Below, piece by piece: positions 11,374 through 61,564 of a stretch of 64,000 nucleotides of DNA (positions are counted from its first letter, which is position 1; each line of letters opens with the position of its first letter). This DNA is from an uncultured bacterium. GTDB lineage: Bacteria > Babelota > Babeliae > Babelales > Vermiphilaceae. The DNA lies in NCBI GenBank assembly GCA_963713925.1, contig OY970212.1:1216001-1280000 (forward strand), given 5' to 3'. The notes under the pieces were generated by a model. It did no database searches. It was not told where the DNA came from and worked only from the letters and a program-made list of their open reading frames with translations. A program made the position numbers and the translations under genes.

Positions 11374-11632
11374 GTTGTTACGATCATCCTCGGAAATGAT
11401 TTTTTTGCCGTCGAGTCCCAAAACAAGCGCATGTAGTTCTGGGTTATACAATGTCCCTAAATGAACAATACATCAAGTATTGTTCACCCCCCTAACCCTT
11501 CAGCATTTATTGTTGAAGGGATTTTTCTTATACCCCAGTTCCATTTTCTTCGAAGTTTAGCAGAATGTGTCATTACACTGGGGGCCCCGCATAACAAAAC
11601 AAAAATCGGAATTACTTTAGACTTCAGAAATT

Positions 11633-11734
11633 AAAAAAAAGAAAAAATCTGCTCTCCGTTTTTACCCATGCTTTCGCATGGGGCCCTCTTCCGTTCATGG
11701 TGAGCGGAGTGAAACGAAGTCGAACCATTCGAAC
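11633..11734 (+). repeat. Composite palindromic repeat B+C, copy 2
   Basis: AAAATCTGCTCTCCGTTTTTACCCATGC..GCATGGGG..CCGTTC.TGGTGAGC..GTCGAACCATTCGAAC. Confidence 0.85.
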
Positions 11735-11753
11735 TTTTTTTTATTTATACGCG

Positions 11754-15932: not shown

Positions 15933-16121
15933 GTTCGTATGGATTCGACTTCGTTGCACTCCGCTCACCACGAACGGAAAAAGAACTGCTACACTTATGA
16001 ATGAATCATGCTGCCTTGAATAAAATTATTCCTCCCCGTTCGTGGTGAGCGAAACGAGTCCCCGATCGTAGCGTAAGCGTAGATTGGGGTTAAAACGTAG
16101 TGGAGTCGAATCCATACGAAC
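15933..16121. repeat. Inverted doublet of family B repeats with a nested family C hairpin
   Basis: GTTCGTATGGATTCGAC..GCTCACCACGAACGG (15933-15977) is inverted at 16036-16121, and that arm carries GTCCCCGATC..GATTGGGGT. Confidence 0.85.
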
Positions 16122-16214: not shown

Positions 16215-16362
16215 AGAGCTCATACGAAAATTTAATCTTTCTGAATAAAAAAAGATCAGTTGTCATGCTGAACTTGTTTCAGCATCCAGGTTAAATAGAT
16301 CCTGAAATAAATTCAGGATGACGAAACAACGAGAAACTTTCGGGAATTTTCGGATAAGCTCG
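16215..16362 (+). repeat. Family A ~147-bp MITE-like repeat, copy 1
   Basis: Terminal IR AGAGCT.ATACGAAAA/TTTTCGGATAAGCTC. Core GTCATGCTGAACTTGTTTCAGCATCCAGGTTAAATAGATCCTGAAATAAATTCAGGATGAC is identical to the 37702 copy. Confidence 0.9.
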
Positions 16363-16395
16363 AAGACTGATTTGATTTTGCATAAAGGAGAATTC

Positions 16396-18948
16396 ATGAC
16401 TCACGAACAATTTACCAATGCAGGCTCTGAGCTCATACAACGAGCCGCATTGCTCGCACAAGAACGAAATAATCCAACATTACAACCGGTGCATCTCCTG
16501 CTAGCTGGCCTGAATGATCAATTTTTTAAAAGTTGTTTGCTTGGCTTAGGCTTGCCAACCGATAAAATTGCTTCCGCCGCTGCACAAGAGCTTGAAAAAT
16601 TACCAACCGCTCAGGGCTCACAACTCATGATCGATTCGAGCTTTGATCGATTCATATCTGCGTGCCAAAAAAGTGCAAAAGAATTTTCAGACAGCTACAT
16701 TAGTATTGAAATTATGGTGCTTGAGCTGCTGACGGGAGGATTTCTACCAGCAACAGTTACTGCATTTTTCAACAACATAACGCGCGATGGTGTGATTGCG
16801 TATATAAAAAAAATGAGGAAAGGAGCTTCTGTGAGTGATAAAAATGCTGAAAGCAAATACCAAGTCCTTGAAAAATATTGTACTGACATTACCGCGCTCG
16901 CAATACATGGCAAGCTTGACCCGGTCATCGGCCGTCATGAAGAAATCAGACGGGTTATTCAAATTCTTTCTCGAAGAACAAAAAACAATCCAGTATTGAT
17001 CGGGGAGCCAGGGGTTGGTAAAACAGCGATTGTTGAAGGCATTGCCCAACGTATCATCAACAACGATGTGCCCGAAAGCTTACAAGGTAAAAAAATCTTT
17101 TCACTTGATTTGGGGCTGCTAATAGCTGGAGCAAAATATCAAGGTGAGTTTGAAGATCGCTTGAAATCAGTGCTCAAAGAAGTTGAATCTTCACAAGAGA
17201 ATATTATTTTGTTCATCGATGAGCTGCATATGCTTGTCGGAGCTGGGGCGACTGGTGGCGGCATGGATGCTTCCAACTTGCTCAAACCCGCTCTTGCGCG
17301 CGGAACGCTGCACTGCATCGGCGCCACAACGCTCAAAGAATATAAAAAATACATTGAAAAAGATGCCGCGCTTGAACGCAGATTTCAACAAGTGCTTGTC
17401 CCAGAGCCGACGGTTGACGATGCAATTTCCATTTTGCGTGGACTCAAAGAACGCTACGAAATTCACCACGGTATTCGCATCACCGATCATGCACTCATTG
17501 ATGCTGTCTTACTTTCAAATAAATATATTCCCGATCGTTTTCTGCCCGACAAAGCAATTGACGTCATCGACGAAGCTGCTGCAATGATCAAAATGTCAAT
17601 CGATTCACAACCAGAGCAAATTGATCGCATCGAGCGACGCATTCGACAATTGGAAATTGAAAAAGTTGCGCTTGCCAAAGAAAAAAATAATGGCTCAGAA
17701 ATGCGACTCAAAGATCTTGAAAAAGAGCTCGCCAATGCAAAACAAGAGCATCAAACGCTCCGCGCACAATGGATGGCTGAAAAAGCTCCGCTCGAAAAGA
17801 TAAATAAAATCAAAGAAGAGATCGAAAAAGCGAGCTTAAAATTTGCTCAAGCAGAGCGAGATGGCGATTTTGCGAAAGCATCAGAAATTAAGTATGCCAC
17901 ACTTGCAAAACTTGAGCGAGAGCTCTCAGAACAGCAAAATGCGCTCAAAAAAGTTGATTCACAACTCGTCAAACAACAAGTTGATGTTGATGACGTCGCG
18001 CATGTGATTTCCCGCTGGACCAAAATTCCGCTCGAGAAACTAAAAGCAAGCGAAACAGACAAATTGCTCCGCATGGCAACCATCTTGGGACAAAAAGTTA
18101 TTGGTCAACAAGAGGCTATTGATCGTGTTTCTCAGGCAGTGCAAATGCATCGTGCAGGGCTTACTGACCCGAACAGACCAATTGGTTCCTTCCTATTTCT
18201 CGGGCCAACCGGCGTAGGTAAAACAGAAGTTGCAAAATCGTTGGCTGACTTTTTATTTAACGATGAAAAGCGCATGATTCGCATTGACATGTCGGAGTAC
18301 ATGGAAAAACATGCAGTCGCTCGCCTTATCGGCGCTCCTCCGGGATATGTTGGATACGAAGAAGGCGGACAACTGACCGAACAAGTGCGCAGACATCCGT
18401 ACAGCGTTGTGCTATTTGATGAGATTGAAAAAGCGCATCCAGATGTGTTTAATATCTTCTTGCAAATTCTTGATGAAGGTCATTTGACTGACAGCCAAGG
18501 GCGAACCGTCTCATTTAAAAATTGCATCATCATCATGACATCAAATATCGGCTCAGATATCATTCTGCAATCAAAGAAAGTTGATCAAAAAGTCAAAGAC
18601 GCGGTTGAAAAAATATTGCAAAAATCATTCCGTCCTGAATTCTTAAATCGTATTGATGCAATTGTATTCTTCAAAGCACTTGATGAATCTGATGTTGCAC
18701 AAATCGCTCAGTTGCAAATCAAGCAACTTTCAGAGCGTCTCGCGCAACGAGATATCACACTATCAATTGATGATGCGGTTGTTGCAAAACTTGCAACCGA
18801 TGGTTATAGCCCTGAATTTGGTGCGCGCCCCTTAAAACGAGTTATACAGCAGCAAGTGATTGTTCCTATTTCGCAGCATCTGCTCAAAAAGCCGGATGTA
18901 AAATCAATCCACTTGTCTTTAAAAGATAATAGCATCGTAATACGATGA
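16396..18948 (+). CDS. clpB: ClpB disaggregase
   Basis: Two AAA+ modules ([16 protein letters not shown]) and a coiled-coil middle domain; AAGGAG RBS precedes ATG 16396. Confidence 0.97.
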
Positions 18949-34411: not shown

Positions 34412-34885
34412 TTATTTTTGCATGTATGGCTGGAGCGCATTTTTAAAAGCTTCGAATCTCGCCTTGGCAAGATCGCCTTTATCAACGCCAACAAGATCCC
34501 ATTCCTTATCTTGTGCTATTGCGTTCGCTTTTGCTTCCATTTGTTTCAAAAATTTTTCTGCGCTCAAGGGAGCGCGGCCTAATCTTTTACGCACATCATT
34601 CATCCTAAGAAACATCATTTCAGGTTTGTCAAAATCAGACTCATCCCGTTTAGTTACAAACGTTGTAATCGAATATGCAACCTTATCAAAAATCGCTTCT
34701 TTCTTCTCATCCAACTTTTTTAATTTTTCGCTCGCGTCACGCAAAACATTAGCCCCTTCAGTTTCTGACCAAGACCTATAAAGCTCATCGTTAGCGGATG
34801 TATAGGGAGTAATTTGTGAGAGTTTGTCTGCAGAAAAAATTTTTGTGTTCAACAATAAACACAAGCTCATCATCATTTTTTTCAC
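34412..34885 (-). CDS. Hypothetical secreted protein
   Basis: Signal peptide and a charged helical body. Confidence 0.6.
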   Translation of the reverse strand: MKKMMMSLCLLLNTKIFSADKLSQITPYTSANDELYRSWSETEGANVLRDASEKLKKLDEKKEAIFDKVAYSITTFVTKRDESDFDKPEMMFLRMNDVRKRLGRAPLSAEKFLKQMEAKANAIAQDKEWDLVGVDKGDLAKARFEAFKNALQPYMQK

Positions 34886-35161
34886 AGCTGATTCCTTCCT
34901 TATTTCAACTCAATATTCTTGCTTGATCAATGTACTATACAACAATACCGATGCAAATTTGTCAAGCTGCCTTGGATTCAACTTACTGCTTCCTTTTGAA
35001 ATCTGAGTAAACTCTAGGCGTGCAAGCATAACTCTGTTAATGTTAAGGGAAGTTCTATTACAGAGATCATATTTTGAAAGCAAACTAATAGCTGCATTCA
35101 TAGCCTGAAAAATCAAAGATTTTGAGTTACTCAAAATCTTTGATTATAGATTGCGAGGTAC

Positions 35162-36868
35162 ATGATGAAAACAGTTGGTGATATTTTAGTTGATATGGGT
35201 ATAATCACCCCCGCCGCGCTTATCGATGCCCAATCGAAAGCACAAAGCGCGCAGCAACGACTTGAAAAGTATCTATTAGATAAAAAATTAATAACGCAAG
35301 CGCAACTAGCTCAAGCATATGCAAAGTATTCAGGATGGGAATACATAGAAAAAATTACCGATTTGATGACCGATCTTGATCTGCTTGCAAAAGTCCCGCT
35401 GAAATTTTTAAGAGATAATGCAATCATGCCACTGAGCATTGATGGCAAGCTCGTGCTCGTGGCGGCAGATCCGATTAAGTATCAACCGCTTGATGAACTT
35501 AATATGTTGCTCGGCGGTGGCGCGCGGTATGCCATTGGACCCGAGAATGTGGTGATTGACGCCATCAACAGATATTATCCGCTTGAAGGCGCAAAACAGG
35601 TTATTGCCGAACTTGAGGAAGAGGAAGAGGTTTTACCCGATGTTGAACTTTCTCACATTGAAGAAAAAGATATCACCTCAATGGCAGCAGAAGCTCCTAT
35701 TATTAAGCTCGTTAACAGCATTTTGTATCAAGCTGCAAAGCGCGGGGCATCAGATATTCACGTTGAACCATTTGAAAAAGAATTGAGCGTGCGTTATCGC
35801 ATCGACGGAGTCATGTACACCGTTATGACACCGCCAAAACGCTTACAAGGAGCGCTCATTTCTCGCATAAAAATTATGGCCAATCTTAATATCGCCGAAA
35901 AACGCCTTCCGCAAGACGGTCGTATCGATTTAAAAGTGGCGGGCAAAGCGATTGATATTCGTGTGTCTGTGTTGCCGGTTGCTTTTGGGGAACGCGTTGT
36001 TATGCGTTTACTTGATAAATCACGCAGCTTTGCAAAATTGGCAGACATTGACTTCAGCGAGCGCGATTACAAAGTCATGGAAGAAAGCATTTCAAAACCA
36101 AACGGTATTATTTACATCACCGGGCCAACAGGTTCGGGTAAAACAACCACCTTGTATTCAATTTTGGGTGAACTTAACAAACCGGAAGTGAACATCATAA
36201 CTGTCGAAGATCCGGTTGAATATCAAATGGCCGGCATTGGGCAAGTACAAGTGCGTGAAAAGGTGGGGCTTACTTTTGCCGCCGCATTGCGCTCCATTTT
36301 GCGACAAGACCCTGATATCATCATGATTGGGGAAACGCGTGATCAAGAAACTGCCCAAATTGCTATTCAATCCGCGCTGACCGGACACTTAGTGCTCAGC
36401 ACCTTACACACCAACAGCGCTCCCGCCACCATCACTCGATTAATCGACATGGGAGTTGAACCATTTTTAATAGCATCTTCGATTCACTTGGCAATGGCTC
36501 AGCGTTTGGTTAGAAAATTGTGTCCCAACTGTAAAAAAGTATATACGCCTTCTGAGCAATTGCTCAACAGCATCGGACTTTCAAAAAAAGACGCACAATC
36601 AATCACTTTTTATGAAGCAATTGGGTGTGATGAATGTTCTCAAACAGGATATCGCGGTCGCCTTGCGCTCTTTGAACTTATGTCGATGACGCCAGGCATT
36701 GCTCGACTCACCATGGAACGTGCTGACACTGCTCAATTGCGTCGACAAGCACAATCTGATGGCATGACACTTCTTGTTCAAGATGGTCTGAGAAAGATTA
36801 AGCAAGGGCTTACAACTATCGAGGAAGTCTTGTCTGTCGCTACTATTGAGCAAGAGGTCGTGGAGTAG
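35162..36868 (+). CDS. gspE: Type II secretion ATPase GspE/PilB
   Basis: MshEN-like N-terminus, ASDIHVEP, EKRLPQDGR, GPTGSGKTTTLY, LRQDPD and a tetra-Cys motif. Confidence 0.93.
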   Translation: MMKTVGDILVDMGIITPAALIDAQSKAQSAQQRLEKYLLDKKLITQAQLAQAYAKYSGWEYIEKITDLMTDLDLLAKVPLKFLRDNAIMPLSIDGKLVLVAADPIKYQPLDELNMLLGGGARYAIGPENVVIDAINRYYPLEGAKQVIAELEEEEEVLPDVELSHIEEKDITSMAAEAPIIKLVNSILYQAAKRGASDIHVEPFEKELSVRYRIDGVMYTVMTPPKRLQGALISRIKIMANLNIAEKRLPQDGRIDLKVAGKAIDIRVSVLPVAFGERVVMRLLDKSRSFAKLADIDFSERDYKVMEESISKPNGIIYITGPTGSGKTTTLYSILGELNKPEVNIITVEDPVEYQMAGIGQVQVREKVGLTFAAALRSILRQDPDIIMIGETRDQETAQIAIQSALTGHLVLSTLHTNSAPATITRLIDMGVEPFLIASSIHLAMAQRLVRKLCPNCKKVYTPSEQLLNSIGLSKKDAQSITFYEAIGCDECSQTGYRGRLALFELMSMTPGIARLTMERADTAQLRRQAQSDGMTLLVQDGLRKIKQGLTTIEEVLSVATIEQEVVE

Positions 36869-36884
36869 AACCTATCGCAAAGCT

Positions 36885-37125
36885 AAAAAAAAGAAAAAAT
36901 CTGCTCTCCGTTTTACCCATGCTTTCGCATGGGGCACTCGCTGTTCGTGGTGAGCGAAACGTAGTGCAGTCGAACCATACGAACAAAAAAATATGCATAT
37001 GGGATAGCGGGTAATGAAAAATTTTGCAAAAAAGACACAAACAAAAAAGTTCGAATGGTTCGACTACGTTGCATTTTTTCCCATGCTTTACGCATGGGGC
37101 CCGCAACTTCGCTCACCACGAACGG
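36885..37125. repeat. Composite B+C repeat plus inverted family B doublet
   Basis: Matches the 4081 and 11633 copies. 36943-37125, including its spacer, is homologous in inverted orientation to 58731-58882. Confidence 0.85.
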
Positions 37126-37139
37126 CTGGAGATTGTTTT

Positions 37140-37667
37140 ATGCCTACGATAAAAATTCAATGGAGCCTAGATCGCCTACGCCCCAGTAAATCCGGATTTA
37201 CACTCGTGGAACTCATGGTTGTGATTACTGTTGTCTGTGTGATAGCAGGCTTAGGCATACTACAGTCTTCTTCATTTGCACACATCACAGCACGTTCTGA
37301 GTTGTATAAACTACATGCCGTTTGCCGCTATCTACAATCGCTCGCTCGCACAACCGGCCATACGCAGCAGTTAGTCTTCACATGCAACGGATATCAATTT
37401 GATGGACAGGAAACAACATTTGCCTCAGGTGTTTCAATTGGATGTAAACCGGGAATATATGGCCCTCCCGGAAAGCCGACGCATGCAGTCAACGGCCCCT
37501 GCAGTTTTGCTCATAACCGAATTGATTTTCATCCTCATGGCATTATAAGCTCAGGCGTGGTATACATCAAAGGATGTGATGGTAGACAATATGCACTCAG
37601 CAACAGTGTTTCAGATATTTCTTACCTAAGAAATTATGAATATGCTGATGGTTGGCGCCAAATATAA
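37140..37667 (+). CDS. Minor pseudopilin (GspH/FimT-like)
   Basis: Prepilin site G/FTLVELMVV; GGAG RBS before ATG 37140. Confidence 0.85.
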   Translation: MPTIKIQWSLDRLRPSKSGFTLVELMVVITVVCVIAGLGILQSSSFAHITARSELYKLHAVCRYLQSLARTTGHTQQLVFTCNGYQFDGQETTFASGVSIGCKPGIYGPPGKPTHAVNGPCSFAHNRIDFHPHGIISSGVVYIKGCDGRQYALSNSVSDISYLRNYEYADGWRQI

Positions 37668-37701
37668 AACCCCATGTGAACCGGGGGAACCTCCAAATAT
37701 A

Positions 37702-37848
37702 AGAGCTTATACGAAAAATTAAGCTCTCTACCTAAAAAAGGGTTGGTTGTCATGCTGAACTTGTTTCAGCATCCAGGTTAAATAGATCCTGAAATAAATT
37801 CAGGATGACATAACAATAAGGAATTTCCGGTATTTTCTGATAAGCTCT
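37702..37848 (+). repeat. Family A ~147-bp MITE-like repeat, copy 2 (empty IS110 target site)
   Basis: Terminal IRs AGAGCTTAT/ATAAGCTCT; contains uninterrupted CTAAAAAAG-GGTTGG. Confidence 0.92.
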
Positions 37849-37855
37849 AAATTTT

Positions 37856-40561
37856 ATGCGCAGACAACTTTTTATCCTTTTTGCATCCCTTGTTCTTATT
37901 GGAATAGTGTTAGGCATCATTGCAAACATCCAAGGAAGCTCGGTACATCAATATCTTGAACAAGTCATCATCAAATCGTGCGAAAAAACACTTGAATGTC
38001 GCCTTTCAACGCGGCTGGAAAGTGTTGGCTTCTTGCACAATCAAGTAGTCCTGAAAAATTTACACGCAACTCCCATCAACAATGATAATTCGTGGGGTTG
38101 GACTTGTAAGAAACTCACGTTGTCATTTAGCCTCTGGCAATTAATAAGCAAACGATTATTCGCCTTTGCGCTTGATTGTCATGAATTCAATGTTCAAACA
38201 ACATATGACAACGGATCTTTTGGCATCACACCACATTTGAATGCATTAGCTCGAGAACCCGATTTCCCTCTTGAGATCGCGCTCACCGGATGTTCTGTCA
38301 AACCTATTAGCATTACTATAACTGACACACGGGGGAATTCGGTGAAAGCGAAAGCTCGTATTGCCGTTGCTCAAAGTGCAAAACAAGTCAAAATACGCTC
38401 ACACATTCTTGAATGCGCAATCGCAACTCCCGAGCGGACTCTTGTGTGGAATACCGCCGGATCAATTGAAGCTGTTTGCAATAAAAAAACAATTGAGAAA
38501 AATATTATTTCACGCATACAAATGAGCTGCGAACCAATCAAAGGAGTCATCGAGCAATTCTCTTTCAATCTTGATTGTAAAGATGACTGCGCCTCGTTAT
38601 CGATTCACAATCATGATACATCATTAGCTCTCGATGAATGTACTGTGCGCTTGCAACCGCATCACATCATGTGCAAAGCTCACGCGCGAATGGGAAATAT
38701 ACAACGACTCCTCGGACAACTTGGCAACAAGAAATGTAGCGCCTCAGCGAACATCGGTGCAGAAATAGATTATAAAAACGCAATCACCGCAAAGCTTCAT
38801 GCTGACGTGGAAAACATAACCCTTCTTGATATAATCATGCCGTATAAAGCCACATTAGATGCTTCCTACGAACAACAAAAAGCAAATGGAATTCTCACTA
38901 TCGCACGTGATGGCACCGACATTTGCAATATATTGGCTTCCGCTGATATGGCGCACAATGATTACCAAGCTTCTGCAGAGCTTCTCGAAGCCCAAAACAT
39001 ATACGGATACATGCTCAATTCGTGCTGTCTACAAGCAAGCTTGCATCAATGTCTTTTCAGTTCGCATCTTGAAAGCGATATCACCAATCAAAATGGTGGA
39101 CATGTTCCTCTGAATATCACACTATCCCCAAACAAAGATACCCATGAGATAGTAGGGTCGGTCGGCTCTGCGACACTTTCAGGAGAAGTTACATTAAATG
39201 AAAAAACTATGGAAGGCGAGTTGCGTCTGCATTCTGCTCAACAAAATCTTTTGGGTTCTTGCGCAGTAAGTGTAGGAGAAAAAAAGAGCTCGTGCCACGC
39301 GAATATCAATTCTTCCGGCATACAACTCTGTTTAGATCAGCTCAATCACCCTATACAAGCCGATGGAACTATTGACATACAAACAAAATTGCAAGACGAC
39401 ATCCTCTTTTTTCAAACATCATTTAACGGAATGGCTCGCCTTGGTTCGCTGCATAATTGGCTCAAAAAAATTTCGCTTGAAGGTTATTATAACTTTGAAA
39501 ACAAAACGTGTTATCTACATACATTGGATGGGGAATTGTATCGTGGCTCATTTCATATGGCAGATGCGCGATGCGTGTTGGACCAACAGTATGGTCTTGA
39601 ATATCTGCATGCGCCCATCACTCTATCGGAATGCTTGATTAACATACGAAAAGATCTCTTTACGATGATATCATCAGGCCTTGTTATTTCTTACAAAAAG
39701 CAGGAACAACCGTACATCTCAGGAACCATTTTCTTTGATAAAACGATGATTAAAGAAAATCTTTTTTCACCACAATTCATTCAATCATTGTTTCCTCAGT
39801 CAGTTGCAACAAACAAAACATTCTTTGTCGATCCTCTCTTTTCCATTGCGATACAAACAAAAGATGTTATTCACGTTAAAACACCACTTCTGGAACTTGC
39901 CGCCCACATGAGATTATCGCTCCAAGGATCTGCATCACACCCAGAACTACAAGGCCGCATTTTACTCCAATCAGGCTCACTTGCCTTCCCCTATGCGCGA
40001 TTATTGTTTTCAAAAGGTAAAATAGAATTTGCAAAAGACAGAATTACTGACCCCATCATCGAACTTCATGCACGCAACACCATAAAAAAATATAAAATCA
40101 GTTTGCAAGTCACCGGCTCGCTCAAATATCCTCATATTCTTTTGGATTCATACCCAAATCTTTCCCAAGAGCAAATTCTCTGTTTATTACTTGCCGGATC
40201 ACCTGATTCGCTCTCCGGAATTGCTCCGGCAGCGCTCCTACAAAGTATGAAATATCTTGTGCTTGATGCAGAACATGCACCATCCAAGCTGCATGCCGCT
40301 ATTCGTCAATTGTTTGCTCCATTTAAACATATCTATCTCATTCCAAGTTTTTCAGATCAAACAAGCAGAGGTGGATTGCGCGGAGCTATCGAAATTGATA
40401 TAGCGGATCGCTGGCGAGCCCTCATTCAGAAAAACTTTAGCTTGACAGAAGATACAAGACTTGAAATAGAGTATGCAATAACGGATGACATGTGGTTCCG
40501 AGCATTTCGAGACGAACGTCATGACGTTGGGGCCGAATTGGAGTTTCGGTGGAAGTTTTAA
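37856..40561 (+). CDS. tamB: TamB/AsmA-like translocation and assembly module protein
   Basis: N-terminal TM anchor and long beta-rich body; C-terminal DP.I...A, VTGSL..P.I.L.S.P.LSQEQIL.LL and LEFRWKF. Confidence 0.8.
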   Translation: MRRQLFILFASLVLIGIVLGIIANIQGSSVHQYLEQVIIKSCEKTLECRLSTRLESVGFLHNQVVLKNLHATPINNDNSWGWTCKKLTLSFSLWQLISKRLFAFALDCHEFNVQTTYDNGSFGITPHLNALAREPDFPLEIALTGCSVKPISITITDTRGNSVKAKARIAVAQSAKQVKIRSHILECAIATPERTLVWNTAGSIEAVCNKKTIEKNIISRIQMSCEPIKGVIEQFSFNLDCKDDCASLSIHNHDTSLALDECTVRLQPHHIMCKAHARMGNIQRLLGQLGNKKCSASANIGAEIDYKNAITAKLHADVENITLLDIIMPYKATLDASYEQQKANGILTIARDGTDICNILASADMAHNDYQASAELLEAQNIYGYMLNSCCLQASLHQCLFSSHLESDITNQNGGHVPLNITLSPNKDTHEIVGSVGSATLSGEVTLNEKTMEGELRLHSAQQNLLGSCAVSVGEKKSSCHANINSSGIQLCLDQLNHPIQADGTIDIQTKLQDDILFFQTSFNGMARLGSLHNWLKKISLEGYYNFENKTCYLHTLDGELYRGSFHMADARCVLDQQYGLEYLHAPITLSECLINIRKDLFTMISSGLVISYKKQEQPYISGTIFFDKTMIKENLFSPQFIQSLFPQSVATNKTFFVDPLFSIAIQTKDVIHVKTPLLELAAHMRLSLQGSASHPELQGRILLQSGSLAFPYARLLFSKGKIEFAKDRITDPIIELHARNTIKKYKISLQVTGSLKYPHILLDSYPNLSQEQILCLLLAGSPDSLSGIAPAALLQSMKYLVLDAEHAPSKLHAAIRQLFAPFKHIYLIPSFSDQTSRGGLRGAIEIDIADRWRALIQKNFSLTEDTRLEIEYAITDDMWFRAFRDERHDVGAELEFRWKF

Positions 40562-40579
40562 AAAAGTATAAGGGAAGTA

Positions 40580-41425
40580 ATGAAGCATATGGTAGTAGTA
40601 ATACTGTGCGCGTTATCGACAATAACGCCCGCAACATGGTGTATATATAACAAAACTCATTTTGTTATTGACCAGTCAGGAAATCCGGTAAAAGATGCTC
40701 AGTTGTCCCAGGGTTTGGATTCAATTGAACGCCCTCGAGAAAAAAAGAACAGTTCATATCGCGTCTTTTTCAGCCCAAATGATGATGTGCGCGCCCGCCT
40801 GATCGATTTGATCAATCACGAAAAGAAATCTATTAAAGTTTCTATTTTTATGTTCACCGATAAGGATATCGCACATGCGCTCATTAGTGCGGCGCAACGG
40901 AATGTTCAAGTGGCTGTCATTGTTGATGGAGCAGCGAGCGCTGATCGATTTAGTAAAATTGAAATGCTCAAGCGTTCCGGCATTGATGTTTTTGAATATA
41001 AACCGCAAGCCCCAACCGGTATCAACAATGATATCATGCATCACAAATTTGTAATTTTTGGATCAAATCAAGATGATTGCTCATTGCTCTGGACAGGATC
41101 ATGTAATTTCACACGATCTGCATCAGTGCGTAATCGAGAAAATGTTATCGTACTTGATGATACGGGTGTAATAGAACAATTTGAGCAAGAATTTGAGCGT
41201 CTGAAGCAAATAATTAAAAAATCATCATCCATGCTTCACTTGTCCGGGCGGTCTTACCCAAGTTCCGTTTCACTACACTTGGGGCCCAAACTTCAGCTCG
41301 GCCCTGTGCGCCATAGCTCCTACGAGCGGCGGCGTAAAGTTACGCAGGACAGGCAAGCTACACGACAAGTTCGAAAGGCAAGCAGGATAACCAAGCGATA
41401 TATCAGAAATAATGAAATATGTTGA
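40580..41425 (+). CDS. Phospholipase D/Nuc-like single-HKD protein with repeat-derived C-terminal tail
   Basis: VFFSP, MHHKFVI, WTGSCNFT and NRENV motifs; signal peptide. Confidence 0.88.
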   Translation: MKHMVVVILCALSTITPATWCIYNKTHFVIDQSGNPVKDAQLSQGLDSIERPREKKNSSYRVFFSPNDDVRARLIDLINHEKKSIKVSIFMFTDKDIAHALISAAQRNVQVAVIVDGAASADRFSKIEMLKRSGIDVFEYKPQAPTGINNDIMHHKFVIFGSNQDDCSLLWTGSCNFTRSASVRNRENVIVLDDTGVIEQFEQEFERLKQIIKKSSSMLHLSGRSYPSSVSLHLGPKLQLGPVRHSSYERRRKVTQDRQATRQVRKASRITKRYIRNNEIC

Positions 41426-55502: not shown

Positions 55503-55591
55503 ATTTTTGAAGGTGTAAAATTTGGAAGTTCGAATGGTTCGATTTCGCTACGCTACACTCACCACGAACGGAAAAAGAAACCGGATCTATC

Positions 55592-55837
55592 TAGGGTCTG
55601 TTGAGTTTTTGTAGTCATGAAAACCGGTGGTTATTTCATGTTTTCAGAACAAAAAGCTCTTCCCCCCGTTCGTGGTGAGCGATAGTCGAACCATTCGAAC
55701 GGGAAAGTTTACTTGATCAAAAAAATTGTTCTTATTATGTCACATGACTGTTCGTATGGTTCGATTTCGCTGCGCTACACTCACCACGAACGAATTTGAA
55801 GCTATTTTTTATATTTTTAAAAACTCAACAGAACCTA
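55592..55837. mobile_element. MITE-like element with 17-bp TIRs and flanking TA, carrying family B repeats
   Basis: TA-GGGTCTGTTGAGTTTTT ... AAAAACTCAACAGAACC-TA (1 mismatch); a related end lies at 58686. Confidence 0.7.
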
Positions 55838-58698: not shown

Positions 58699-58882
58699 GT
58701 TTTTGAAAGTCTTAATAAAATAGTTTCCAACCGTTCGTGGTGAGCAAAGTGCAACGGAGTCGAACCATACGAACTCATTTATTCGTATCTTTTTTACAAA
58801 ATTTCCCATTCTCCGCTATCCATAGTCAATTAATTTTTTTTCGTATGGTTCGACTGCACTACGTTCCGCTCACCACGAACGG
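58686..58882. repeat. Family B inverted doublet with a MITE-like terminal sequence
   Basis: CCGTTCGTGGTGAGC..GTCGAACCATACGAAC and its inverse; the left end resembles the 55837 end. Confidence 0.8.
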
Positions 58883-58904
58883 TTATAGTAAAAAATTAAT
58901 TAAG

Positions 58905-60076: not shown

Positions 60077-60222
60077 GTGTAATTTTTTTAAATATTCTTA
60101 TTCTACTTCGCTGCCTAATGGCAGCTTCGAAGAACTCCGCGCTCAATGACTTTTCAATTAGAGCTTATACGAAAATTAAGCTTTCTAACTAAAAAGTAAT
60201 TGTGTTAAAAGTCAATTAATTT

Positions 60223-61164
60223 TTAAGCACTACATACTTCGCCCTTTTTCAAGATAACATTTGCAATGATGATCAGCTTTCGCATTACTGCAACAATAGC
60301 TACTTTAAAGCTTTTTTTGTTTGCTATTAGTCGATCATAAAAGGATTTTAAAGGAGCATAATACTTAATAGTCGTTATAGCACACATATATAATGCATTT
60401 CGAGGAATAATCCTACCGCCTTGAATGAACCGTTTGCCTGTATAGTTGCCACTTTCTCGATCGTAAGGACAAACTCCGACAAGGGCTGCTATTTCATTAT
60501 TGCTTACAGATCCAAGTTCAGGCACAAACGAAATCAATATCGCGGCCGAAGATTTACCGATTCCCGGGATTGATTCCAAAAGCTCTGTCCGTTTCTGCAG
60601 TACCGCATCTTGATCAATCAATTCTTCAATTTGTTCATCCAAAGCCTTGATCTCTTTATTTAAAAAGAGGATCATTCTTTCGATACTTGAAACACCGAGT
60701 GCATGCGAGGGGTGTTTAAGTCGAGTTTTTTCAGTTGCCAAAAATTTGGTCAAATCCTGCTTTCGATTAACCAAAGATAGCAATGTTTCTTGGTTATGAG
60801 TTCTGCTGACTGGCTCATAATCTTGAGAATTCTTCGATGCAAATTCAGCAATTTTTTGTGCGTCTATTTTGTCTGTTTTGCTTTTGCAACCAGTTGCGAT
60901 TATAAAACCCTTTATCCTCCGTGGATCAACTATCCAACAACTATAGGAATGTTCCTGTAATACCCGAGTAAGCAATTTTTCGTAACCACCGGTTGCCTCA
61001 CATGCAATTTGCTTAATACTGTAATTGGATAATTGCTTCACAAACTTTTTTATTCCGCTTTCTGTATTGGGTATTTTAACCCATTGCTTCAACGGATGAA
61101 TAAAAATGTCCAAATTGTTCTTTGAAATATCGACGCCGATAAATACTTCTGGTAGGGTAATCAT
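60223..61164 (-). CDS. IS110-family DEDD recombinase/transposase
   Basis: GVDISK, CEATGGY and KTDKID (D-E-D-D); SIPGIG and RESG (catalytic Ser); VAVMRKL. Confidence 0.96.
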   Translation of the reverse strand: MITLPEVFIGVDISKNNLDIFIHPLKQWVKIPNTESGIKKFVKQLSNYSIKQIACEATGGYEKLLTRVLQEHSYSCWIVDPRRIKGFIIATGCKSKTDKIDAQKIAEFASKNSQDYEPVSRTHNQETLLSLVNRKQDLTKFLATEKTRLKHPSHALGVSSIERMILFLNKEIKALDEQIEELIDQDAVLQKRTELLESIPGIGKSSAAILISFVPELGSVSNNEIAALVGVCPYDRESGNYTGKRFIQGGRIIPRNALYMCAITTIKYYAPLKSFYDRLIANKKSFKVAIVAVMRKLIIIANVILKKGEVCSA

Positions 61165-61165
61165 A

Positions 61166-61370
61166 AATACCTCATCCTTGTAAACATTCGAGGTCGTATT
61201 AATACGCCTCTAGTAATTGTTCGAGGTAATTTCGTATAAGCTGATAGTCTCAAACTTTTTAGCAATCGATTACGATTAGGGTTGGCGCGAGCTCTATCAG
61301 CTTTTCCCGAGCAACTAATTTGTGAAACAATATACCGATCACAAATTAATACATTATCTATCAAAATTTG
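61166..61370 (-). ncRNA. IS110 bridge RNA (5' hairpin, target-binding loop, donor-binding loop); ends approximate
   Basis: Stems at 61316-61325/61339-61348, 61238-61247/61294-61303 and 61168-61173/61223-61228; four loop segments match the target and donor sequences. Confidence 0.88.
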
Positions 61371-61564
61371 AATCAATTTTTAACATACAAGGGTTGGCTG
61401 TCAAGAGGCACTTGTTTCAGCAACTTGTCCGCCGTAGCTTACCAATCCTGAAAGCCTGGATAAGCGAAGGCTGGATCCATGTTAAGTAGATCCTGAAATA
61501 AATTCAGGATGACATAGCAATAAGGAACTTTCGGGATTTTCGGATAAGCTCTTAGATGAGCGCT

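What the first reader, a model, noticed from the sequence alone, without database searches (positions are those of the whole stretch)
37702..37848. The IS110 guide is programmed against a multicopy host repeat, with an empty site and a diverged copy in the same window
The IS interrupts a ~147-bp TIR-bounded repeat (family A). The 37702 copy has an intact ACCAACC-CT-TTTTT site (1 mismatch to LTG and one extra T in the RT run), which fixes the IS boundaries and looks like an available target. The 16215 copy has an identical palindromic core but a diverged site (AAAAAAGATCAGTTG), predicted to be non-targetable. This parallels IS621 targeting REP sequences, but here the safe harbour is a MITE-like element.
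Basis: partly seen in the sequence, partly recalled or inferred. Interest (0 to 1): 0.72.

Follow-up and report, generated by a model that had tools for sequence, protein, structure and literature searches.

The report
RNA-guided IS110 filling IS5-type MITE sites
A small RNA-guided jumping gene has landed three times at the same base of a miniature transposon scattered through this bacterial genome; the empty copy flagged here is a near miss for its guide, and landing in repeats is a known habit of this family.

Summary
An IS621-like IS110 element (window 60197-61391, minus strand, intact recombinase, bridge RNA) has three near-identical genome copies (0-2 differences in 1195 bp). All three sit at the same CT core of repeat family A, in copies that differ from each other by 8-11%, so the insertions were independent. 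Family A (27 loci) is an IS5-family MITE: 145 bp, 3-bp target duplications, ends shared with autonomous IS5 elements in relatives; no IS5 transposase was found in this genome. One correction: the right target guide reads 7-8 bases, not 4. Only three genome sites pair fully with the guides, and these are the three occupied ones. The 37702 copy has a six-A run instead of five, so it mismatches at position 14. It is a near-cognate site, not a clean open target. The 16215 copy ranks 23rd of 24. Polymorphic insertion could not be tested. An IS110-family element landing in a MITE is published (IS1111 in Coxiella QMITE2), and this scan noted the same arrangement in other genomes. Verdict: new member of a known kind, with a neat natural case of target saturation set by homopolymer length.

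The parts
37703..37847 (+). Empty family A MITE copy, 145 bp, imperfect ~16-bp TIRs starting GAGCTTAT
   Evidence: folds as one long hairpin as ssDNA, z -4.58, 0 of 200 shuffles as good
37700..37702 (+). Left 3-bp target-site duplication TAA (right copy at 37848-37850)
   Evidence: identical flanking triplets in 15 of 20 two-ended copies, permutation mean 8.4, p 5e-5
37733..37747 (-). Near-cognate IS110 target: P1-P7 at 37747-37741, CT core at 37740-37739, right target 37738-37733. P1 is a wobble; P14 and P15 are unpaired because the A run has six bases
37746..37809 (+). Inner palindromic doublet (REP-like, label from recall), identical in the 16215 copy; also occurs without the TIRs elsewhere
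16216..16361 (+). Diverged family A copy with GAA/GAA duplication; target site degenerate (5 of 15 positions unpaired)
60161..60196 (+). Left arm of the filled family A copy: TIR, right-target half with five-A run, and one copy of the core at 60195-60196; TTA duplication at 60158-60160
60197..61391 (-). IS110 element, 1195 bp including one CT core (61391-61390); three genome copies with 0-2 differences
60223..61164 (-). IS110 recombinase, 313 aa, DEDD RuvC-like domain plus Transposase_20 domain; D12, E56, D98, D101 and S238 invariant in 59 relatives
61240..61301 (-). Bridge RNA target-binding loop: left guide 61286-61278, right guide 61262-61255 (8 nt with core), handshake bases 61254-61253
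61165..61232 (-). Bridge RNA donor-binding loop: left donor guide 61220-61212 (9 of 9 match to the circle junction), right donor guide 61182-61177
60210..60215 (-). -35 box in the right end; forms a sigma-70-like promoter with the -10 box at 61387-61382, 17 bp apart, only on the joined circle
   Evidence: junction built in silico; no expression data
61392..61551 (+). Right part of the filled family A copy: left-target half, inner doublet with a nested ~52-bp hairpin repeat (about 61423-61474), right TIR; TTA duplication at 61552-61554

Best explanation
A recently active IS110-group bridge recombinase uses its bridge RNA to insert at one site in the left arm of an IS5-family MITE. Steps: (1) the element leaves the chromosome as a circle, and the joined ends form a sigma-70-like promoter for the bridge RNA (promoter shown in sequence; circle and transcription inferred from IS621). 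(2) The left guide pairs with P1-P9 of the target, and a naturally long right guide pairs with P8-P14, perhaps P15 (complementarity and covariation shown; binding inferred). (3) Recombination at the CT core inserts the element with only the core repeated (shown by filled versus empty copies). Because the right guide spans the whole A run and the base behind it, only MITE copies with exactly five As and an intact left target pair fully. The 37702 copy is a one-mismatch (P14) reserve site; the 16215 copy is not a target. The MITE is now orphaned, so new perfect sites can arise mainly by point change or A-run slippage (inferred).
For: 3 of 3 IS copies in family A at the same base. IS copies differ by 0, 2 and 2 of 1195 bases, their MITE hosts by 11, 12 and 15 of 138. 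After in-silico excision, exactly 3 sites in 1.315 Mb pair fully with the guides over 14 or 15 positions, wobble allowed, and they are the 3 occupied sites. Under an 11-nt rule 13 sites pair fully (10 in family A, 3 outside); drawing just these 3 has a chance of 1 in 286. In 14 related elements (21 sites) the right guide pairs at P12-P15 in 0.80 of positions against 0.59 after permutation, p 1e-4; P14 pairs in 19 of 21 sites, p 0.0014. Structures show right-guide pairing to P12-P14, and extension raised on-target share from 69.4% to 84.9% (PMC11208158 passages; PMC11208160 section 9).
Against: Only three insertions, and the right-guide length was first read off the filled sites, so the 1-in-286 figure is post hoc. 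The 14 relatives are kin and some share guides, so the permutation p overstates. P15 pairing is not above permutation (p 0.34). Natural sites with P14 unpaired exist (2 of 21: L033, L038), several natural sites pair poorly on the left (for example L002, L051, L053), and one dropped distant relative (L003, by eye) has a right flank that does not fit its guide. PMC11208160 reports some off-targets tolerating insertions in the target, which would let a six-A site be used through a bulge. No RNA, circle or polymorphism data (uninformative).
Confidence: 0.72

Rival explanations
1. One reading: recognition needs only about 11 nt (left target, core, two bases), as in wild-type IS621, so 37702 is a fully available target and the element simply has not reached it yet.
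For: 37702 pairs fully over P1-P13. Only 3 copies exist, so the invasion may be young. Indel-tolerant off-targets are reported (PMC11208160 section 9). 2 of 21 natural sites in relatives have P14 unpaired.
Against: 10 of the 13 sites that pair fully over 11 nt are empty, among them two with a perfect left match outside family A; the 3 filled ones are exactly those that pair through P14. Clade covariation reaches P13 and P14.
Confidence: 0.2
2. The IS entered family A once, and the MITE then carried it to new places as cargo of an IS5 transposase, or gene conversion spread it.
For: Two filled copies carry the same type of ~52-bp nested insert; TIRs and duplications surround each filled copy.
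Against: The three hosts differ by 8-11% while the IS copies differ by at most 0.17%. One host lacks the insert and another has decayed TIRs and a broken duplication. Two of the three have an empty copy as nearest neighbour. No IS5 transposase was found in the genome.
Confidence: 0.03
3. Targeting needs a DNA structure as well as the guide, as reported for ISPpu10; the hairpin-rich MITE supplies it, and this, more than the long right guide, explains why matches outside family A stay empty.
For: The MITE folds strongly. By eye, sites of relatives in G155, G156, G191 and G008 lie in hairpin repeats. A target stem-loop gate is reported for ISPpu10 (10.64898/2026.03.19.712850, abstract and section 7).
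Against: It cannot separate filled from empty family A copies, which share the fold. The inner hairpin next to the site is altered in all three filled copies and strongly so in the window copy. The two empty perfect 11-nt sites outside family A are themselves in hairpins. I did not test a left-target stem-loop across relatives.
Confidence: 0.05

Closest known systems
IS621 of Escherichia coli (IS110 group; PMC11208160, PMC11208158; PDB 8wt6) and ISCro4 (PDB 9t56)
   Same: DEDD plus serine recombinase (E 1e-37 and 2e-38 to the two solved proteins), bridge RNA upstream of the gene with two guide loops, CT core, junction promoter, handshake bases at P7, one rG:dT wobble in the left guide, insertion into a dispersed intergenic repeat.
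   Different: Distant in sequence; the target is a MITE arm and not a REP; the right guide is naturally 7-8 nt and not 4; only 3 fully pairing sites exist, against 173 insertion sites mapped for IS621.
IS1111 of Coxiella burnetii in QMITE2 (PMC5896051, passages)
   Same: An IS110-family element whose copies sit in a MITE (20 of 21 there, 3 of 3 here) in a host-associated bacterium; the MITE holds a REP-like palindrome.
   Different: IS1111 group, not IS110 group. The site there is the GTAG palindrome; here it is a non-palindromic stretch between the TIR and the inner doublet. The passages read give no guide analysis.
ISPpu10 and ISPpu9 of Pseudomonas putida (10.64898/2026.03.19.712850, abstract and section 7; PMC12288879, listing only)
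   Same: IS110 elements confined to a repeated intergenic sequence.
   Different: Target is a REP; a target stem-loop adds specificity for ISPpu10, which was not shown here.
IS5-family insertion sequences (NCBIfam NF033580) and their MITEs
   Same: Family A shares its terminal ~16 bp and 3-bp TWA duplication with ~861-864-bp single-ORF IS5 elements in G078, G101 and G104.
   Different: Family A has no coding part and holds an inner palindromic doublet; no partner transposase was found in this genome. The IS1031-subgroup label that a 3-bp duplication suggests is from recall and was not tested.

Membership tests
IS110 family, IS110 group (bridge recombinase) | DEDD RuvC-like domain (PF01548) plus C-terminal domain (PF02371) with catalytic serine | tested here: met
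   Both Pfam domains over cut-off; NF033542 197.7 bits against cut-off 140; D12, E56, D98, D101, S238 invariant in 59 sequences
IS110 family, IS110 group (bridge recombinase) | Structured non-coding RNA in the left end (5' of the gene) with two internal guide loops | tested here: met
   Two-hairpin fold, z -2.80, 2 of 200 shuffles as good; scaffold conserved in 22 related loci. No Rfam match of note
IS110 family, IS110 group (bridge recombinase) | Guides complementary to target and to donor around a 2-nt core, covarying across relatives | tested here: met
   left target 9 of 9, right target 8 of 8, left donor 9 of 9, right donor 6; P10-P11 pairing 0.93 against 0.47 permuted
IS110 family, IS110 group (bridge recombinase) | Insertion repeats only the core; no long terminal inverted repeats | tested here: met
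   Filled versus empty copies
IS110 family, IS110 group (bridge recombinase) | Circle junction rebuilds a sigma-70-like promoter | tested here: met
   -35 and -10 boxes 17 bp apart on the in-silico junction; sequence only
IS110 family, IS110 group (bridge recombinase) | Circular intermediate, bridge RNA expression and RNA-dependent recombination | not testable with these tools
   Only low-depth DNA contigs were available
MITE of the IS5 family | Short, non-coding, multicopy, bounded by TIRs | tested here: met
   27 loci, 20 with both TIRs, 140-268 bp
MITE of the IS5 family | Target-site duplication | tested here: met
   Identical 3-bp flanks in 15 of 20, permutation mean 8.4, p 5e-5
MITE of the IS5 family | TIRs shared with an autonomous element | tested here: met
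   Same TIR motif bounds IS5 transposase genes in G078, G101, G104; motif in 67 of 261 phylum genomes, reversed control in a handful
MITE of the IS5 family | Cognate transposase present to move it | tested here: not met
   No match in the own genome (95.75% complete, one contig) with PF13340, PF01609 or tblastn of two partner proteins; this bears on present mobility, not on origin
   Family A as a whole has TIRs and a duplication, so it is not a REP. Its inner doublet occurs alone in 4 of 60 relatives and around a GIY-YIG gene; I did not search for a REP transposase

The most novel reading that the evidence does not exclude
The guide was rewritten in a block to fit a sequence private to this genome, and copy number is now capped by a homopolymer: the five-A state of the MITE run is a target, four or six is not, so slippage in an orphaned MITE switches landing sites on and off. 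The target motif occurs in 1 of 261 phylum genomes. The nearest relative with DNA (72% protein identity) has the same donor guides and a near-identical scaffold, yet 12 of 13 non-core target-guide bases differ. This clade would then be a natural series for asking how bridge RNAs acquire new targets.
Probability: 0.15. Interest if true: 0.65.

Novelty: new member of a known kind. Interest (0 to 1): 0.33.

Why it matters
It is a clean natural test of bridge-RNA specificity: a complete single-contig genome, a graded series of 24 near-targets, and occupancy that matches full pairing through P14. It supports the view that natural long right guides are read and can tell a one-base change in a homopolymer. 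It gives a ready substrate panel for assaying mismatch and bulge tolerance, and a distant, small (313 aa), apparently recent bridge recombinase. It does not change what is known about IS110 landing in repeats or MITEs.

Tried and rejected
Polymorphic insertion at 37739-37740: three public runs were laid on 34500-41000. All were low-depth contigs of one study; no listed piece bridged the site with unique flanks, and the loose ends near it belonged to other family A copies. Uninformative. Composite MITE-plus-IS transposition: rejected. IS5 transposase in the own genome: none found. MITE targeting as a clade trait: TIR motifs on both sides close to the site were found for the 3 own copies; among 22 related loci only L036 had a near TIR on one side plus a weak far match, and three loci had short or missing flanks. 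So it is not a clade trait in those examined. Full-length family A in relatives: 0 of 60; only the inner doublet, in 4. Rfam: one chance-level match. My first guide parser failed on most loci and the second had one-base register errors; one search is the corrected run, with registers chosen from the RNA alone. A single-protein scan of metagenome contigs found nothing. Earlier-findings look-ups by sequence and by a longer word list returned nothing. P15 as part of the guide: not supported by covariation (p 0.34).

Full report
Setting. The window is G000:C1:1216001-1280000 of a single-contig genome of 1,318,721 bp, 40.8% GC, 95.75% complete. The organism is probably a Dependentiae (Babelota) bacterium. 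This is inference: one 65%-identical homologue carries that name, and earlier notes on this genome say the same.

Observation check. The 37702 and 16215 repeats and a third, interrupted copy are present as described. The two empty copies share an identical 64-bp block, 37746-37809 = 16259-16322. The core of the 37702 site lies at 37739-37740. Comparing empty and filled copies places the IS between two copies of a CT core: 60197-61391, 1195 bp with one core.

The IS. ORF 60223-61164 (minus strand, 313 aa) has PF01548 and PF02371 over their cut-offs and passes NF033542. Its only solved relatives are ISCro4 and IS621 transposases. D12, E56, D98, D101 and S238 are invariant in 59 aligned sequences. 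The left end folds into two hairpins with internal loops (z -2.80). The first loop holds the left target guide (61286-61278) and right target guide (61262-61255). The second holds the donor guides, which match the circle junction at 9 of 9 and 6 bases. The junction forms -35 and -10 boxes 17 bp apart. The first base behind each right guide pairs with P7 of the other DNA, as the handshake rule predicts (read; rule from PMC11208158 passages).

Genome-wide occupancy. There are three IS copies (genome 678447-679641, 1121218-1122412, 1276197-1277391), differing by 0, 2 and 2 bases. All lie in family A at the same base. Their host repeats differ by 11, 12 and 15 of 138 aligned bases; one has no central insert and one has decayed ends. 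These are independent, recent insertions into older repeats, not a composite that moved.

What family A is. One search gave 31 clusters. Three are left halves split off by the IS and one is a set of inner doublets without ends, which leaves 27 loci; 24 keep the left arm and 20 have both ends. The flanking triplets are identical in 15 of 20 (permutation mean 8.4, p 5e-5): TAA, TTA, and GAA at 16215. The element therefore runs 37703-37847. The end motif occurs in 67 of 261 phylum genomes. In G078, G101 and G104 it bounds elements of about 861-864 bp with one ORF; the two tested pass the IS5 model NF033580. Ten shorter elements with the same ends, several with inner hairpins, were seen in other genomes. 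No IS5 transposase was found in G000. Family A is an orphaned IS5-family MITE. None of the 20 two-ended copies is spanned by an ORF of 120 aa or more, and the three filled cores are outside such ORFs, which cover 85% of the genome. This fits a low-cost landing site, though a fitness benefit was not tested.

Which copies are targets. I cut the three IS copies out in silico and scored every CT-core site against the guides, counting G:T and U:G as wobble pairs. Over 11 positions, 13 sites pair fully: 10 in family A and 3 outside. Over 14 or 15 positions only 3 do, and they are the filled ones. If positions 12-14 did not matter, this pick has a chance of 1 in 286; the figure is post hoc and rests on three events. 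The filled sites have five As. 37702 has six, which leaves P14 and P15 unpaired; it is one of 14 one-mismatch sites over 14 positions (9 in family A, 5 outside) and ties for 8th-12th among the 24 left arms. 16215 ranks 23rd of 24.

Is the long right guide real? 18 of 261 phylum genomes hold a relative at E 1e-60 or better. I examined 40 loci (output partly cut) and scored 25: 3 own and 22 related, of which 21 from 14 distinct elements have a right flank. Dropped were L031 (same as L032) and 14 loci at 45% identity or less whose scaffold my pattern does not parse; 74 of the 80 metagenome loci were not examined. In the 14 elements, pairing at P12-P15 is 0.80 against 0.59 permuted (p 1e-4). P13 gives p 0.002, P14 p 0.0014 (19 of 21 sites paired), P15 p 0.34. 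Kinship inflates these values. Against the reading: P14 is unpaired at 2 of 21 natural sites, both P14 and P15 at 1 of 21, several sites pair poorly on the left, and the dropped locus L003 fits its right guide badly by eye. PMC11208160 (section 9 read whole) says some orthologues have longer right guides, that extension to 7 bp raised on-target insertion from 69.4% to 84.9%, and that some off-targets tolerate insertions. So 37702 is disfavoured, not excluded.

What relatives target. By eye their sites lie mostly in hairpin repeats, for example in G155, G156, G191 and G008. TIR motifs closely bracket only the own three sites; L036 has one nearby TIR. The family A target motif (20 letters, up to 2 mismatches) occurs in 1 of 261 genomes, this one. 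The closest relative with DNA (G242, 72%) keeps the donor guides and most of the scaffold but differs at 12 of 13 non-core target-guide bases. Other relatives (G120, L063) have left guides only 2-3 bases from this one, so stepwise drift remains possible.

Reads. Two of three listed runs hold part of the region (shares 0.29 and 0.17). They are low-depth contigs and say nothing on polymorphism at the site.

Comparison with what is known. IS621 inserts into REPs under bridge-RNA control (PMC11208160; passages and section 9). In Coxiella, 20 of 21 IS1111 copies lie in QMITE2 (PMC5896051, passages; repeated in the review PMC10969869, passages). IS1111-group elements target the terminal repeats of Tn21 (a reference title seen). 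ISPpu10 adds a target stem-loop (10.64898/2026.03.19.712850, abstract and section 7). I also saw passages of PMC3184786, 10.64898/2026.08.14.744561 and 10.1101/2025.05.14.653916 (14 bases recognised by IS622). No supplements were read; the target tables of PMC11208160 may list further MITE targets. Five searches listed no paper on IS110 in Dependentiae, and no listed IS110 paper held the terms 'target saturation' or 'homopolymer'; the library lacks most subscription journals. This scan has 31 notes in at least 26 genomes with the words IS110, bridge RNA and MITE; these are unchecked AI notes.

Verdict. Real, well supported and of a known kind. What is worth keeping is the match between occupancy and full pairing through P14, set by the length of an A run. 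Interest 0.33.

Noticed in passing
L190:472-783 (G000:C1 about 104371-104682): A 103-aa stand-alone GIY-YIG nuclease gene (PF01541) is flanked on both sides by copies of the same palindrome that forms the inner doublet of family A, without the MITE ends.
   Followed up: partly
window 61423-61474; also genome 168.1, 191.4, 569.2, 873.2, 886.0, 1121.1, 1190.6 kb: Long family A variants carry 50-170 bp of other hairpin repeats nested at the centre of the inner doublet. By eye the nested unit resembles the repeat that the related IS110 of G156 targets, yet no IS sits there in this genome.
   Followed up: partly
G000:C1 873157-873393 (minus strand): One family A copy has a 9-bp tandem duplication right at the IS target site, which destroys the core. 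It could be slippage or a scar of a failed IS event.
   Followed up: no
G000:C1 about 122192 and 687729 (minus strand): Two terminator-like hairpins outside family A match the left guide and core perfectly over 11 nt but are empty; similar sequences lie near 912.7 and 1186 kb.
   Followed up: partly
L172-L181 (G105, G107, G115, G056, G156, G047): Other genomes of the phylum hold unrelated-looking MITEs of 150-396 bp with the same IS5-type ends, several with inner hairpin doublets: a phylum-wide MITE superfamily.
   Followed up: partly
window 36911-37141, 11627-11740, 15934-16108, 55525-55792, 58714-58884: At least two further dispersed palindromic repeat families fill intergenic spacers of the window (families D3-D5, D7, D8).
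   Followed up: no
window 16318-18948: The mechanical start of the ClpB ORF falls inside the 16215 MITE; the likely true start is the ATG near 16397, so the overlap is probably an ORF-calling artefact.
   Followed up: no
window 35162-37667: A type II/IV secretion ATPase gene and a gene with an N-terminal methylation motif lie just upstream of the 37702 copy; a TamB-like gene follows it. The MITE fills most of the spacer 37668-37855.
   Followed up: no
L033 (G120:C9) left end: The related IS110 in G120 has a tandem duplication of its first ~16 bases at the left junction.
   Followed up: no
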